A stretch of 64,000 nt of DNA. It comes from a virus. Location of the stretch: positions 1 through 64,000 of IMG/VR virus record IMGVR_UViG_3300050821_010655. One strand, 5' to 3'. A program made the position numbers and the translations under genes. This document shows, piece by piece, positions 6,122-23,758 of the stretch. How positions within the stretch are numbered: the stretch's first letter is position 1; the number at the start of each line of letters is the position of its first letter. A model generated the notes under the pieces. The model ran no database searches. It was not told the origin of the DNA and was given only the letters and a program-made list of their open reading frames with translations.

Positions 6122-6535
6122 ATGAAAACCTACCTGACTGCCTTCCTGTTCGCCCTCGCCCTTCCCGCCCTCTCGCAACCCCTCCCCGGCTACCTCCAAC
6201 AAGCCAAGCGAGTGAGTGTCAGTGGCACGGTTACCGCCGTCAACGCCAGCCAAATTGTGGTGAGCAATGCCGTGACCAGCCTCAGCCAGGGATCGACCAC
6301 GACCTTCAGGCGGGTGAATGGCAGGCTAACTCCTGTGGAGGTGCCGGGAAGGCCGGTCGCGGTCACAACGCCGTGCTATACATATTTACGAGGTTACCCT
6401 GCTTGGACCCAGGTAAAGGTTGGCGACAAGATGAGCATCTCGGATTACTGCTATTTGGTCGGGGAGGGCGGGGGCGTACGAACTGTTCAGTACTGGGTGA
6501 CGACCAATGTGGTGCCGAGGAAGGTGTGGCGCTAA
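6122..6535 (+). CDS. secreted protein with signal peptide
   Basis: MKTYLTAFLFALALPALS-Q signal; last gene of the + arm, converging with the - arm. Confidence 0.65.
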   Translation: MKTYLTAFLFALALPALSQPLPGYLQQAKRVSVSGTVTAVNASQIVVSNAVTSLSQGSTTTFRRVNGRLTPVEVPGRPVAVTTPCYTYLRGYPAWTQVKVGDKMSISDYCYLVGEGGGVRTVQYWVTTNVVPRKVWR

Positions 6536-6996
6536 CCGCCATTCAGCCCAAGCGTAGCCTTAGCCAAGTCCAGCACCCAAAGGGCGTCCGCCTGATCGTG
6601 GCTCTCAATCTGAACCTTGGGCCATTTCTTCCTTGCCGCCGAAATCATCTTGTCCTTATTGGCGTTGCCTTTGCCAGTCGCCTGCTTCTTTACCTCGCTG
6701 GGTGAGAACCCGCGATATTCAATATGGTTGTCCTCGGCCCATAACTTTATTACTCCCTGAATTTCACTTTGAACCACTAGCGCACCGGCTGTCATTGGTC
6801 CTGAAAATCGGGCTGCTTCAAAGACACACAGTTCAAATGGACAGTCTTTAAGCAATTCGGTGAGCTTGCCCCTCAATCGAATCAACTTCATTCCCTTGGA
6901 CTCATCTCGACGAGTGGATAGATCCCAAGTGCCAGAGATGCCGCAGGAGTGGGCGAAACCGCAGTGAGTTGCAGGGTCAAGAGCTAATATATTCAC
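6532..6996 (-). CDS. RuvC-like Holliday junction resolvase
   Basis: ILALDPA, VFE, PSEVKKQATGKGNANK, HDQADAL. Confidence 0.85.
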   Translation of the reverse strand: MNILALDPATHCGFAHSCGISGTWDLSTRRDESKGMKLIRLRGKLTELLKDCPFELCVFEAARFSGPMTAGALVVQSEIQGVIKLWAEDNHIEYRGFSPSEVKKQATGKGNANKDKMISAARKKWPKVQIESHDQADALWVLDLAKATLGLNGG

Positions 6997-21480: not shown

Positions 21481-21518
21481 TTGATTTCCTTTCGTTCTGT
21501 GGTTTGTGAATTTTTTCT

Positions 21519-21563
21519 AAAAGTTAAAGAGGGGGCGGTTGCTTATCACGCAAGCCCGCCCCC
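21519..21563 (-). terminator. intrinsic terminator closing the ncRNA
   Basis: GGGGGCGG-GCTT...AAGC-AA-CCGCCCCC followed by TCTTTAACTTTT. Confidence 0.7.
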
Positions 21564-21838
21564 AAGGTTAAAACGACGCCTTTTAGCTGTGTTCCACAGA
21601 TCGCCTGACACATCTTGAACCTAATCACAACGCCTTACCCCTAGACCACCCCGCCACATGGAGGCGGGGACGGGAATTGAACCCGCGTCTTTGCTTTGGG
21701 TTGTACCATCGATCCGTTTCACTTGTCGTTTCGTTTCTAAGCCTTCGGGTGAAAACTTAAGCCTTTATCCAGTGATCTTAAGTCTGACCTTGAGCCTTGG
21801 ATGGGCTTTTCGCCAAAGCTACTAAGCCCCACCCGAAA
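21564..21838 (-). ncRNA. structured RNA with circularly permuted tRNA-like module (YrlA/Y-RNA-like) and a repeat-bearing 5' domain
   Basis: T-arm GCGGG-TTCAATT-CCCGT (21670-21686), acceptor CCCCGCC-TCCATGT-GGCGGGG (21649-21669), D-arm GTCT-AGGGGTA-AGGC (21632-21646); enclosing long-range stems. Confidence 0.8.
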
Positions 21839-22606
21839 TTATGGTTTCTTGCCGTCAAAAACAAACCCAAGCAGGGCTTTGCCCATTTTTAGATTTGTCT
21901 CAACCTCCTGATCATTCGCCCGCGAACGCGCCTTGCGTACCGCCCGAATCGTCTGTTCCGCCCGATCAAGAATCTCCGATTTTTCAGCCGGGGTGATCAA
22001 CCCGGACCACTCTTGCTCCGAGATAGTGCCAACCACCAAGTCAACAGGCACGAGTTGCGTCTGCGCCGGGTGCTCTTTGGTTGGCTCGTGCAACACCACC
22101 ACCCGCACGTCTTTCTTGGTCCGTGCTTTGTTTACTTCGCGAGCCTTATAAATTCCACCGCCGCGTTGGGGGTCGTCCTGAAATCCCTTGGCGGGATCGA
22201 GCGTCGGAATCGCCTTGGACAAATGAAGCACCCAATCGGTCAGCCGCTTTTCCAATTCCAAAAGGGCGGTGGCGGGAATGTCTTTGAGCAAGACCGTTCC
22301 GGCGTCATCGTCCAGAACCACATCGGCTCGTGCCTTGGTGTTGGCGTCCGCCACCTGCAACCCGGCATCCATTGCCTTTGCCAAATGTGGAACAATCCAT
22401 GCCAGTTCTCTACGCACCGTGCTTTGAATATCCGACTGCGCTTCGGTGGTGGCGGGTTTGCCCTCTTCGTTGGATTGGAAAGTGGTTCGCTTTTCCTCAA
22501 ACAGATGGCGTTTCTTTTCAAAGGTGTTCGCCAAATCGGTTCGGGTTTGAATGGCTTGGGTTTCCAGATTTCCTTCGGCAGCTAACAGTTCGTGTAGTTT
22601 CGTCAT
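21839..22606 (-). CDS. unknown alpha/beta coiled-coil protein, first gene of the leftward early operon, immediately upstream of the ncRNA
   Basis: 255-aa ORF MTKLHELLA...AVRKARSRAN; own promoter. Confidence 0.8.
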   Translation of the reverse strand: MTKLHELLAAEGNLETQAIQTRTDLANTFEKKRHLFEEKRTTFQSNEEGKPATTEAQSDIQSTVRRELAWIVPHLAKAMDAGLQVADANTKARADVVLDDDAGTVLLKDIPATALLELEKRLTDWVLHLSKAIPTLDPAKGFQDDPQRGGGIYKAREVNKARTKKDVRVVVLHEPTKEHPAQTQLVPVDLVVGTISEQEWSGLITPAEKSEILDRAEQTIRAVRKARSRANDQEVETNLKMGKALLGFVFDGKKP

Positions 22607-22650
22607 ATTTTTGTGCTCTGCGGTTTATGGTTTCTCGGTCAACTGAAACC

Positions 22651-22680
22651 ACCTTGCCACACCAAGCCGAAAGGTGTCAA
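22651..22680 (-). promoter_or_regulatory. promoter TTGACA-N18-CAAGGT
   Basis: Minus strand AATGTATTGACA, A-rich upstream, TG extension. Confidence 0.55.
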
Positions 22681-22823: not shown

Positions 22824-22901
22824 AAGAAAACGCCCCGGCAGGCCGAGAAACCCACCGGGGCGCACCACAACGAATGAACGATCCGCTTCGCTATACGCGA
22901 G
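22824..22901 (-). ncRNA. candidate ~80-nt sRNA (5' hairpin, single-stranded seed, terminator)
   Basis: Lies between a promoter (22908-22937) and the terminator CGCCCCGG...CCGGGGCG-TTTTCTT (22824-22862); no ORF on this strand within the span. Confidence 0.55.
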
Positions 22902-22907
22902 AGCCTC

Positions 22908-22937
22908 ACCTTACCGCACTTCAACCGCTGGCGTCAA
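22908..22937 (-). promoter_or_regulatory. promoter TTGACG-N18-TAAGGT
   Basis: Hexamers at 22932-22937 and 22908-22913. Confidence 0.55.
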
Positions 22938-23122: not shown

Positions 23123-23758
23123 TCACTCCACGTTTTTGTTCCACCAGTCGTACAGCCCTTTCAAGATCGGGTGAAATCCATATTGTTTCATCTCGACATA
23201 AGCCGTTGCTTCGGTCCAGTGATCCGACCAAACACGATAGACACCGCAAACCAAACCAGTACGATCGTTTCCACCAGCACTCTTGAGTACCGCATCTATT
23301 CTTGAGCGAGTGCGGCTGTCGCTTCCGCAATGGACGTAACAATGCCCAACCTGCATAATCGCTACCGCCTTGGCCACCGTGCTTACTTTGGGTCCACCCT
23401 CCAACTGTTCACCCACCGAGATTGGAAAACGATAGACCTTCATGCCCATCCGTTCAGCCAAGTTGTCACTGCCCTCGGCGTCGGTGTTGAGCTTCACCAC
23501 GCTTCGCACCCCCGCCAGCCAGATATTGGTCCAACCCTGCGCCGTGGGTTGACCGCCACGCAGGATTACTTTGTCGGCGTCAACGGTGTGGAGGTTGGGG
23601 ATTGGCGGAAGTGGTGTTGTGCAACAGGACTCCAGCAAAAGGCAAAACCACGCGCCCAGCCAAAGCAGATTGCGTTGGAGCAGGCGAATGCGTATGTTAC
23701 GGAGCACAGCGCAACAGGAACTACACATCCGCACCGCAATCAGCCAGGGAGGGCGCAT
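23123..23758 (-). CDS. exported/lipoprotein tyrosine (dual-specificity) phosphatase-like protein with an interrupted P-loop
   Basis: IPNLHTV, RGGQP, GVRSVVKLN, YVHC...GNDRTG, A..EM..YGFH; hydrophobic stretch ending ESC. Confidence 0.75.
   Translation of the reverse strand: MRPPWLIAVRMCSSCCAVLRNIRIRLLQRNLLWLGAWFCLLLESCCTTPLPPIPNLHTVDADKVILRGGQPTAQGWTNIWLAGVRSVVKLNTDAEGSDNLAERMGMKVYRFPISVGEQLEGGPKVSTVAKAVAIMQVGHCYVHCGSDSRTRSRIDAVLKSAGGNDRTGLVCGVYRVWSDHWTEATAYVEMKQYGFHPILKGLYDWWNKNVE

What the first reader, a model, noticed from the sequence alone, without database searches (positions are those of the whole stretch)
21505..22680. Candidate protein-RNA system: unknown protein followed by an RNA with a circularly permuted tRNA mimic, without a Ro60 gene
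Seen: directly after the stop of the 255-aa ORF, the minus strand holds a T-arm (TTCAATT loop), then the 3' acceptor strand + U-CCA, a 3-nt linker, the 5' acceptor strand GGCGGGG, UG, and a canonical D-arm with GG. The tRNA halves are in swapped order and there is no anticodon arm. The module sits at the tip of a long interrupted stem (AAACGAC/GTCGTTT, GATCG/CGATC, TGGTACA/TGTGTCA) and ends in a terminator. The unit has its own promoter and heads the early operon. Known: bacterial/phage YrlA Y RNAs have such a T-acceptor-D module and normally lie next to Ro60/Rsr (TROVE); two-piece tmRNAs are also permuted. No TROVE or SmpB gene is in this window. Inference: a Ro-independent ribonucleoprotein whose tRNA mimic could decoy tRNA-targeting defence nucleases, or be processed by RNase P into a CCA-ended chargeable end (GGCG start and U73 resemble tRNA-Cys).
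Basis: partly seen in the sequence, partly recalled or inferred. Interest (0 to 1): 0.88.

Follow-up and report, generated by a model that had tools for sequence, protein, structure and literature searches.

The report
tRNA-mimic RNA paired with DUF7873 protein
Right after a phage gene of unknown function (DUF7873) lies a roughly 320-base folded RNA built from six-base repeats and a back-to-front tRNA look-alike; the gene-RNA pair recurs in hundreds of phages and bacteria, matches no described RNA family, and is found next to the Ro60 gene more often than chance would give.

Summary
On the minus strand, straight after the stop codon of a 255-aa DUF7873 gene, lies a roughly 320-nt RNA with three parts. 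A stem closes a hairpin and a tract of 6-nt repeats. A long interrupted stem carries a permuted T-arm, 7-bp acceptor stem (with UCCA in its loop) and D-arm. A 3' hairpin ends the unit.

The same module follows 79 of 80 viral and 64 of 78 bacterial DUF7873 genes, and is essentially absent from control flanks (none viral, 3 of 78 bacterial loci). Covariation is strong: 95.7% of cells paired, and 167 double changes against 45 in shuffles. The nearest known kind is YrlA, the tRNA-like Y RNA of Ro60, but the RNA scores 23 bits against a threshold of 69 and lacks the Ro60-binding motif.

The "no Ro60" reading holds only in part. The 76.7-kb record has no TROVE gene. A 61%-identical relative has TROVE directly upstream of DUF7873, four more viral loci have it within 10 kb, and the two genes co-occur in Myxococcota genomes.

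My best reading is a DUF7873-RNA particle, optionally working with Ro60, whose phage forms are probably opened by RNase P to a CCA end. Binding, expression and processing are untested. The scan found this pair before on other DNA.

The parts
21839..22606 (-). Gene for a 255-aa protein of Pfam family DUF7873 (PF25283)
   Evidence: Pfam E 8.7e-62, profile positions 1-243 of 244. More than 1300 relatives, all unnamed, in 1967 clusters at 50% identity. The AF2 model has pLDDT 95.2: four long helices plus three beta-hairpins. It has no convincing solved relative.
21744..21837 (-). 5' domain of the RNA. Stem P1 (UUCGGGUG 21837-21830 with CACCCGAA 21751-21744) encloses a hairpin (21829-21803) and a tract of 6-nt repeats (about 21798-21752).
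   Evidence: P1 is kept in 27 relatives, with C-G to U-A exchanges in 8 rows. Of successive U[CU]A spacings, 44% equal 6 nt against 4.8% in shuffles. The domain starts one base after the stop codon.
21571..21731 (-). Long interrupted stem (AAACGAC 21731-21725 with GUCGUUU 21577-21571, GAUCG/CGAUC, GGUACA/UGUGUC) that carries the tRNA-like head
   Evidence: MFE fold. In 21 of 26 clade members the two flanks of the head pair with z below -2 against shuffled flanks, although their sequences differ.
21627..21694 (-). Permuted tRNA-like head: 4-bp anticodon-like stem (21694-91 with 21630-27), T-arm 21686-70, acceptor 3' strand 21669-63, UCCA 21662-59, linker 21658-56, acceptor 5' strand 21655-49, D-arm 21646-32
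   Evidence: Rfam YrlA matches over the full model at 23.2 bits (gathering score 69). Model R1 scores 92.6 bits. Every pair of the 4-bp stem and the D-arm, which played no part in choosing the loci, shows compensatory changes: 99.1% and 97.2% of cells paired.
21616..21626 (-). Conserved internal-loop motif GAUUAGGUUCA, 3' of the 4-bp stem. It has the same sequence type as the 6-nt repeats.
   Evidence: Consensus GAUYAGGCUNA across 37 relatives.
21520..21563 (-). 3' hairpin (GGGGGCGG...CCGCCCCC, loop region GCGUGAUA) and a weak U-rich tail; probable end of the RNA
   Evidence: A hairpin with a related loop closes the unit in relatives, in some after an embedded real tRNA. The terminator scan did not call it.
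22651..22680 (-). Candidate promoter TTGACA-N18-CAAGGT (weak evidence)
   Evidence: Fails the sigma-70 scan. The pattern occurs twice in the window, and 12 of 100 shuffles give as many. A terminator-like hairpin at 22863-22830 on the minus strand suggests that a new transcription unit starts here.

Best explanation
The stretch encodes a two-part unit: the DUF7873 protein and a roughly 320-nt non-coding RNA made as the 3' extension of its mRNA. The RNA is a YrlA-type tRNA mimic. It is a single-headed variant of a widespread RNA that usually has two heads.

Inferred mechanism:
- DUF7873, probably as an oligomer, binds the single-stranded 6-nt repeats.
- The tRNA-shaped head is thereby displayed to a tRNA-recognising factor, much as a Y RNA tethers Ro60 to an effector.
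- In phage versions the acceptor loop is probably cut by RNase P at G+1 and trimmed to the encoded CCA. That would give a two-piece, CCA-ended mimic.
- The unit belongs to the same functional neighbourhood as Ro60/Y RNA and phage tRNA clusters (RNA quality control, repair, or conflicts over tRNA). It can work with Ro60 where Ro60 is present and without it where it is absent.

Shown here: the RNA structure, the gene-RNA linkage, and the partial linkage to Ro60. Inferred only: binding, processing and biological role.
For: Linkage of gene and RNA:
- The head lies downstream on the same strand in 74 of 80 viral loci by the strict scan, with no control hits, and in 79 of 80 by the covariance model.
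- It is found in 64 of 78 bacterial loci against 3 control hits, and in cultured phages of Rhizobium, Vibrio, Gordonia, Ralstonia, Arthrobacter and Klebsiella.

Structure:
- 95.7% of cells are paired. There are 167 double-change cells against 44.8 +/- 5.2 in shuffles and 14-55 when partners are slid.
- The flanks of the head form a conserved long stem.

Other points:
- No other conserved protein neighbour exists in bacteria.
- The RNA abuts the stop codon.
- The 6-nt periodicity is present across the whole family, with lineage-specific repeat sequences.
- NCCA follows the stem in 56 of 63 viral heads, and U is at -1 in 37 of 63. RNase P cleavage of a 7-bp YrlA stem is documented (PMC4201824; 10.1101/312249).
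- TROVE is adjacent or co-occurring in a minority (92, 94, 96).
- DUF7873 genes sit in phage tRNA arrays.
Against: - There is no datum on transcription, binding or processing, and no RNA-seq run holds this stretch.
- The protein fold has no known RNA-binding relative.
- Gene adjacency could reflect co-transcription alone.
- Bacterial versions mostly lack NCCA (4 of 33 and 8 of 33 heads), so a CCA end cannot be essential to the family.
- T-arm and acceptor pairing were used to select most loci, so only P1, the 4-bp stem, the D-arm and the long stem give independent structural support.
- An earlier check within this scan priced the claim that the protein binds this RNA and works without Ro60 at 22 in 100.
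Confidence: 0.55

Rival explanations
1. It is an ordinary Ro60 Y RNA (YrlA proper). Its real partner is a Ro60 encoded in the missing third of this phage genome or by the host. DUF7873 is then an accessory factor or merely a neighbour.
For: - The arrangement TROVE, DUF7873, RNA on one strand in G159 contains only one YrlA-like RNA.
- TROVE lies within 10 kb in 5 of 80 viral loci.
- The two genes co-occur in Myxococcota genomes: 5 of 8 against 8 of 143.
- The record is only 64% complete.
- Ro-adjacent YrlA-like RNAs of phage TM30 score no better on Rfam (36-37 bits) than the DUF7873-linked one (35.9 bits).
Against: - 75 of 80 viral loci have no TROVE within 10 kb.
- Five of the seven phage genomes searched whole that are complete or 96-100% complete by CheckV lack TROVE.
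- The Ro60-binding motif GNCGAAN0-1G is absent from the window's RNA and present in only 6 of 27 relatives.
- TM30 and G157 have separate YrlA-like RNAs next to TROVE.
- The RNA tracks DUF7873, not TROVE.
Confidence: 0.2
2. It is a cis-acting 3' end element. RNase P cleavage at the tRNA-like head forms and protects the 3' end of the DUF7873 mRNA, as for MALAT1 and mascRNA. No RNA-protein particle is involved.
For: - The RNA abuts the stop codon.
- The viral heads have a 7-bp stem, an encoded NCCA and U at -1.
- Real tRNAs are embedded in the same unit in relatives.
- Precedents are cited in 10.1101/312249.
Against: - This does not explain the conserved 6-nt repeats, the P1 domain, the long stem or the 3' hairpin.
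- It does not explain the closed-loop, CCA-less heads of bacterial versions.
- It does not explain why only this gene family carries the element.
Confidence: 0.1
3. It is a free-standing decoy for host enzymes or defence toxins that act on the tRNA elbow or CCA end. The protein gene is linked only by co-transcription.
For: - The head has canonical T and D loops and a CCA.
- The genes lie in phage tRNA arrays.
Against: - Chromosomal copies occur in many bacterial phyla, with no prophage-wide synteny detected.
- Bacterial heads mostly lack CCA.
- The strict coupling to one protein family is left unexplained.
Confidence: 0.1
4. It is a two-piece (permuted) tmRNA or a true permuted tRNA gene.
For: Weak partial matches to the permuted tmRNA models over the T-arm, acceptor and CCA segment only (14.5 bits; 20-25 bits).
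Against: - ARAGORN finds none, and no match reaches the gathering score.
- The D-arm is canonical, whereas tmRNA lacks one.
- The third acceptor pair is C3:G70, not G3:U70.
- There is no conserved tag reading frame and no anticodon arm: a 4-bp stem opens into conserved internal loops.
Confidence: 0.02

Closest known systems
YrlA (Y RNA-like A; Rfam RF02553), the tRNA-like Y RNA bound by bacterial and phage Ro60/Rsr (Chen et al. 2014, PMC4201824; Wang et al. 2018, bioRxiv 10.1101/312249)
   Same: - Same permuted order: T-arm, loop-capped acceptor stem, D-arm.
- No anticodon loop; the head sits on an extended stem.
- Canonical T and D loops.
- It aligns over the full YrlA model.
- Like the M. 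smegmatis form, it has a 7-bp acceptor stem.
- In some relatives it lies beside TROVE.
   Different: - It scores 23 bits against a threshold of 69.
- It has no GNCGAAN0-1G Ro60-binding motif.
- It is about three times longer than the 114-position YrlA model, with a domain of 6-nt repeats and a 3' hairpin.
- NCCA is encoded in the loop.
- Its constant neighbour is DUF7873, not Ro60.
- There is no TROVE gene in this record.
The two-headed DUF7873-linked RNA noted earlier in this scan on other genomes, seen here in bacteria and in phages phiRSL1, Racecar and FBKp24
   Same: The protein partner, the 6-nt repeats, the type of tRNA-like head and the position after the gene are all the same.
   Different: The window's clade has one head, resembling head 2 (U73 and D-arm type). 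In place of the leucine-tRNA-like head 1 it has a P1-closed repeat domain. NCCA is nearly universal in this clade.
Two-piece (permuted) tmRNA with SmpB
   Same: The gene order is permuted, with the T-arm, 3' acceptor strand and CCA ahead of the 5' acceptor strand. It is also a small RNA with a dedicated protein partner.
   Different: There is no tag reading frame and no G3:U70 pair. The D-arm is canonical. Neither ARAGORN nor Rfam calls it. I did not search for SmpB.
MALAT1/mascRNA-type tRNA-like 3' end elements
   Same: A tRNA-like structure lies at the 3' end of a longer transcript and is a plausible RNase P substrate.
   Different: The head here is permuted, so cleavage would leave the two halves paired. 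That system is eukaryotic and has no dedicated protein partner.

Membership tests
YrlA (Rfam RF02553) | Permuted tRNA-like module: T-arm, closed acceptor stem-loop and D-arm on an anticodon-like stem | tested here: met
   Read directly from the sequence. Aligns over the full model. Compensatory changes occur in every helix.
YrlA (Rfam RF02553) | Score at or above Rfam's gathering threshold (69 bits) | tested here: not met
   23.2 bits. The candidates next to TROVE in phage TM30 also reach only 36-37 bits, so the threshold is strict for phage forms.
YrlA (Rfam RF02553) | Encoded next to a Ro60/TROVE gene | tested here: not met
   There is no TROVE gene in the 76,696-bp record, which is 64% complete. 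The feature is met in relatives G159, G157, L005 and TM30.
YrlA (Rfam RF02553) | Ro60-binding motif GNCGAAN0-1G in the 5' strand (Chen et al. 2014) | tested here: not met
   The motif is absent from the window's RNA and present anywhere in only 6 of 27 clade RNAs. The similar CCCGAAGG is the 3' strand of P1 and covaries with its partner.
YrlA (Rfam RF02553) | Bound by Ro60; modified by TruB and DusA | not testable with these tools
   Needs immunoprecipitation and modification mapping.
Two-piece tmRNA | Detected by ARAGORN or Rfam; tag reading frame; G3:U70 pair; D-loop without a stem | tested here: not met
   ARAGORN finds none. The permuted tmRNA model gives 14.5 bits against 47. The pair is C3:G70 and the D-arm is canonical.
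tRNA (true or permuted gene) | Anticodon stem-loop | tested here: not met
   A 4-bp stem opens into conserved internal loops and a long stem, with no 7-nt anticodon loop. ARAGORN finds none.
Pfam DUF7873 (PF25283) | Whole-protein score above the curated cut-off (27 bits) | tested here: met
   209.4 bits, profile positions 1-243 of 244.
DUF7873-linked tRNA-mimic RNA (undescribed; defined in this scan) | Lies directly downstream of a DUF7873 gene on the same strand; has a tract of 6-nt repeats and at least one permuted tRNA-like head | tested here: met

The most novel reading that the evidence does not exclude
DUF7873 and this RNA form a previously undescribed ribonucleoprotein found across phages and at least six bacterial phyla. 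An oligomer of the protein reads the 6-nt repeats. One or two anticodon-less tRNA heads, opened to a real CCA end in phages, engage the cell's tRNA-handling machinery. The particle is a sister system to Ro60/Y RNA that can work with or without Ro60.
Probability: 0.4. Interest if true: 0.85.

Novelty: new variant of a known kind. Interest (0 to 1): 0.72.

Why it matters
Y RNAs are the only known RNAs of this shape, and their tRNA-like half still has no identified binding partner (10.1101/312249). This RNA of the same shape travels with a different, very widespread protein of unknown function and sits inside phage tRNA clusters.

If the pair is a particle, three things follow:
- A large DUF family (about 2000 clusters at 50% identity) gets a function.
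- tRNA mimicry turns out to be used more broadly than the Ro60 system.
- Cultured phages (RHph_TM30, Racecar, phiRSL1, FBKp24, Ronaldo) become available in which to ask what the tRNA-like head binds.

The new link to Ro60 (adjacency in some phages, co-occurrence in Myxococcota genomes) makes the relation between the two systems directly testable.

Tried and rejected
- **Cas7-like fold.** Foldseek's weak rows (E 0.015-0.05, TM about 0.15) disappeared on re-alignment. I rejected this lead, although the 6-nt periodicity made it tempting.
- **Solved or predicted relatives of the protein.** PDB sequence search, Foldseek, VIA wide (best Z 8.5, helical bundles only), PHROGs and the ESM Atlas (only DUF7873 clusters) gave nothing usable.
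- **Expression.** No RNA holder is listed for the stretch, so no reads were laid.
- **Reverse co-occurrence (RNA without the gene).** Model R1 hit 97 of 151 Myxococcota genomes. It is not specific genome-wide, probably because it matches neighbouring tRNA genes, a risk Chen et al. also warn of for dimeric tRNAs. The test is uninformative.
- **Literature.** No paper mentions DUF7873. Searches for permuted tRNA with phage and for Y RNA with tRNA-like found no description of this pair. Burroughs and Aravind 2016 (PMC5062991) and the 2020 Annual Review (PMC10870794) are not held.
- **Coding reading of the repeats or the 3' part as a tmRNA-like tag.** By my own reading of the sequences, no frame is conserved and stops are frequent.
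- **The repeats as copies of the tRNA D-stem strand AGCUCA.** Lineages with other repeat sequences (phiRSL1 AGCGUU, Vibrio AAACUA) do not match their own D-arms.
- **Conserved flanking genes in the window.** The 263-, 552-, 240- and 133-aa neighbours have no counterpart beside relatives.

Full report
**What is there.** The window is part of an IMG/VR virus record of 76,696 bp that CheckV rates 64% complete. On the minus strand, ORF 22606-21839 encodes a 255-aa protein that matches Pfam DUF7873 end to end (E 8.7e-62). One base after its TAA stop codon a structured region begins and runs to about 21520. It has these parts:
- Stem P1 (21837-30 with 21751-44) encloses a hairpin and a tract of 6-nt repeats.
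- A long interrupted stem (21731-25 with 21577-71, and two inner helices) carries a 4-bp stem.
- On that stem sits a tRNA-like three-way junction in permuted order: T-arm 21686-70, acceptor 3' strand 21669-63, UCCA, UGU linker, acceptor 5' strand 21655-49, UG, D-arm 21646-32.
- A GC-rich hairpin (21563-31) with a poor U tail ends the unit.

ARAGORN calls nothing in the window, and no Rfam family reaches its threshold. With relaxed thresholds the best match is YrlA, over the full model, at 23.2 bits against a gathering score of 69.

**Is it more than chance?** DUF7873 is a large family: more than 1300 close relatives and 1967 clusters at 50% identity, all unnamed.
- I fetched 80 viral loci with proteins 34-68% identical to the window's. 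I scanned them with a strict pattern: a 5-bp T stem, a T-loop motif, and 7 of 7 acceptor pairs across a loop.
- 74 of 80 have the module within 1 kb downstream on the same strand. None has it upstream or on the other strand.
- A covariance model built from 37 heads recovers five of the six misses, giving 79 of 80. It hits the 64-kb window only once.
- Cultured phages of Rhizobium, Vibrio, Gordonia, Ralstonia, Arthrobacter and Klebsiella show the same thing. They carry one or two heads in an unannotated gap after the gene, and Rfam YrlA scores 31-38 bits at most of these heads.
- In the species-representative genomes at least 552 stretches encode a relative, among them Myxococcota, Actinomycetota, Bacteroidota, Planctomycetota, Abditibacterium, Acidobacteriota and Verrucomicrobiota. 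Of 78 usable loci, 64 have a head downstream and 33 have two, against 3 control hits.

**Structure.** In a 27-sequence alignment of the window's clade, RNAalifold recovers P1, the 4-bp stem, the T-arm, the acceptor stem and the D-arm. Of 24 predicted pairs, 22 show compensatory changes.
- Counting my 27-pair structure gives 95.7% of cells paired. There are 167 double-change cells against 44.8 +/- 5.2 in shuffles, and 14-55 when partners are slid.
- T-arm and acceptor pairing were part of my selection. The independent support is therefore P1 (88.8% paired), the 4-bp stem (99.1%) and the D-arm (97.2%).
- The flanks of the head differ in sequence, yet they pair with z below -2 in 21 of 26 members.

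**The 6-nt repeats.** Inside P1, 44% of successive U[CU]A spacings are exactly 6 nt (4.8% in shuffles) and 13.5% are exactly 12 nt.
- The repeat consensus is GGCUCA or GACUCA.
- A related motif, GAUYAGGCUNA, is conserved in the internal loop next to the 4-bp stem.
- Comparable tracts, with lineage-specific sequences (AAGCUG, AGCGUU, AAACUA), precede head 1 in two-headed RNAs of bacteria and cultured phages.
- Periodic single-stranded repeats of this kind are what oligomeric RNA-binding proteins read. The idea that DUF7873 reads them is an inference.

**The protein.** AlphaFold2 with 83 sequences gives a confident model (pLDDT 95.2, pTM 0.84) of four long helices and three beta-hairpins. Neither Foldseek nor two VIA runs find a convincing solved relative, and weak Cas7 rows did not survive re-alignment. 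Across the 78 bacterial loci that the search covered, no other protein-coding neighbour is conserved; the best cluster covers 6 loci. The RNA is therefore the only constant partner of the gene.

**Relation to Ro60.** The window's record has no TROVE gene, but the picture in relatives is mixed.
- Of five complete cultured phages, only RHph_TM30 has TROVE. It lies 6 kb downstream in the same tRNA region and has two YrlA-like RNAs of its own.
- Among the window's nearest viral relatives, G159 has the order TROVE, DUF7873, RNA on one strand, with a 77-nt gap and no other YrlA-like RNA.
- G157 has TROVE 3.6 kb upstream, and L005 has it 1.3 kb downstream.
- With 10-kb flanks, 5 of 80 viral loci have TROVE, always upstream on the same strand. 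Two of 80 bacterial loci have it within 6 kb.
- In 151 Myxococcota genomes, TROVE occurs in 5 of 8 genomes with a full DUF7873 and in 8 of 143 others (Fisher p = 1e-4). This is not corrected for phylogeny or genome size.
- The unit is thus mostly found without Ro60 nearby, yet it is linked to Ro60 far more often than chance. The Ro60-binding motif of YrlA is not conserved in it.

**CCA and processing.** NCCA follows the 7-bp stem in 56 of 63 distinct viral heads, and base -1 is U in 37 of 63. In bacteria only 4 of 33 and 8 of 33 heads have it. In the alignments of the window's clade the acceptor loop is A-rich.
- M. smegmatis YrlA, which also has a 7-bp stem, is cut by RNase P and receives CCA. 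Most YrlAs have shorter stems and stay closed (PMC4201824; 10.1101/312249).
- Several relatives carry a real tRNA between the head and the 3' hairpin, so tRNA-processing enzymes must act on these transcripts.
- Phage forms are therefore plausibly opened to a two-piece, CCA-ended mimic. This is inference.
- The discriminator base and acceptor sequences vary freely, so no single aminoacylation identity, tRNA-Cys included, is conserved.

**Verdict.** The RNA and its pairing with DUF7873 are real and, in the libraries and papers I could search, undescribed.
- It is best filed as a new variant of the YrlA/Y RNA kind, with a new constant protein partner.
- The window carries a single-headed form.
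- The Ro-independent reading is only partly supported.
- This scan has reported the same pair on many other genomes.

Noticed in passing
L012:4896-5105 (Microcoleus phage My-WqHQDG): A HEARO RNA (Rfam RF02033, 129 bits, above threshold) sits in the gap after the DUF7873 gene, where relatives carry the tRNA-mimic RNA. It looks like an insertion of an IS200/605-type element. The strict scan found no complete head within 800 nt after the gene, although a T-loop-like hairpin lies about 100 nt after the stop. The covariance model's only hit in the locus is weak and far downstream (21 bits at 6512-6637).
   Followed up: no
L011:5018-5097 (Klebsiella phage vB_KpM_FBKp24): The record annotates a 'tRNA-Sup-TTA' here. 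The interval ends in the T-arm, 3' acceptor strand and ACCA of the second permuted head. The suppressor tRNA call is probably a misreading of the mimic.
   Followed up: partly
L018, L019, L024, L027, L030, L034, L040, L041, L042, L078 (downstream of the head): A canonical tRNA lies between the tRNA-like domain and the conserved 3' hairpin of the same unit. By my reading the anticodons include UGU, CAU, UCU and UAU. The window has no tRNA gene at all.
   Followed up: partly
L013:2260-2460 and L014 (between DUF7873 and the RNA): A small ORF with CxxC...CxxC spacing (zinc-ribbon-like) is inserted between the DUF7873 stop codon and the start of the RNA. The RNA then abuts that ORF's stop codon instead.
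   Followed up: no
window 22830-22863 (-) and 22908-22937 (-): A strong terminator-like hairpin lies upstream of the DUF7873 unit. It is preceded by a second TTGAC-N-AAGGT promoter-like site. Together they fit the short sRNA candidate that another first-stage note places here.
   Followed up: no
L175:5476-5764 (Rhizobium phage RHph_TM30, upstream of TROVE): Two tandem YrlA-like RNAs lie directly before the annotated TROVE gene (Rfam 36-37 bits; R1 35 and 60 bits). They are unannotated in the record.
   Followed up: partly
window 23123-23758 (-): The 211-aa ORF upstream gives a weak match to a dual-specificity phosphatase domain (PF22741, E 2e-4, below cut-off). It has a weak relative in L002 and L003, on the opposite strand 1.2 kb from DUF7873.
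   Followed up: no
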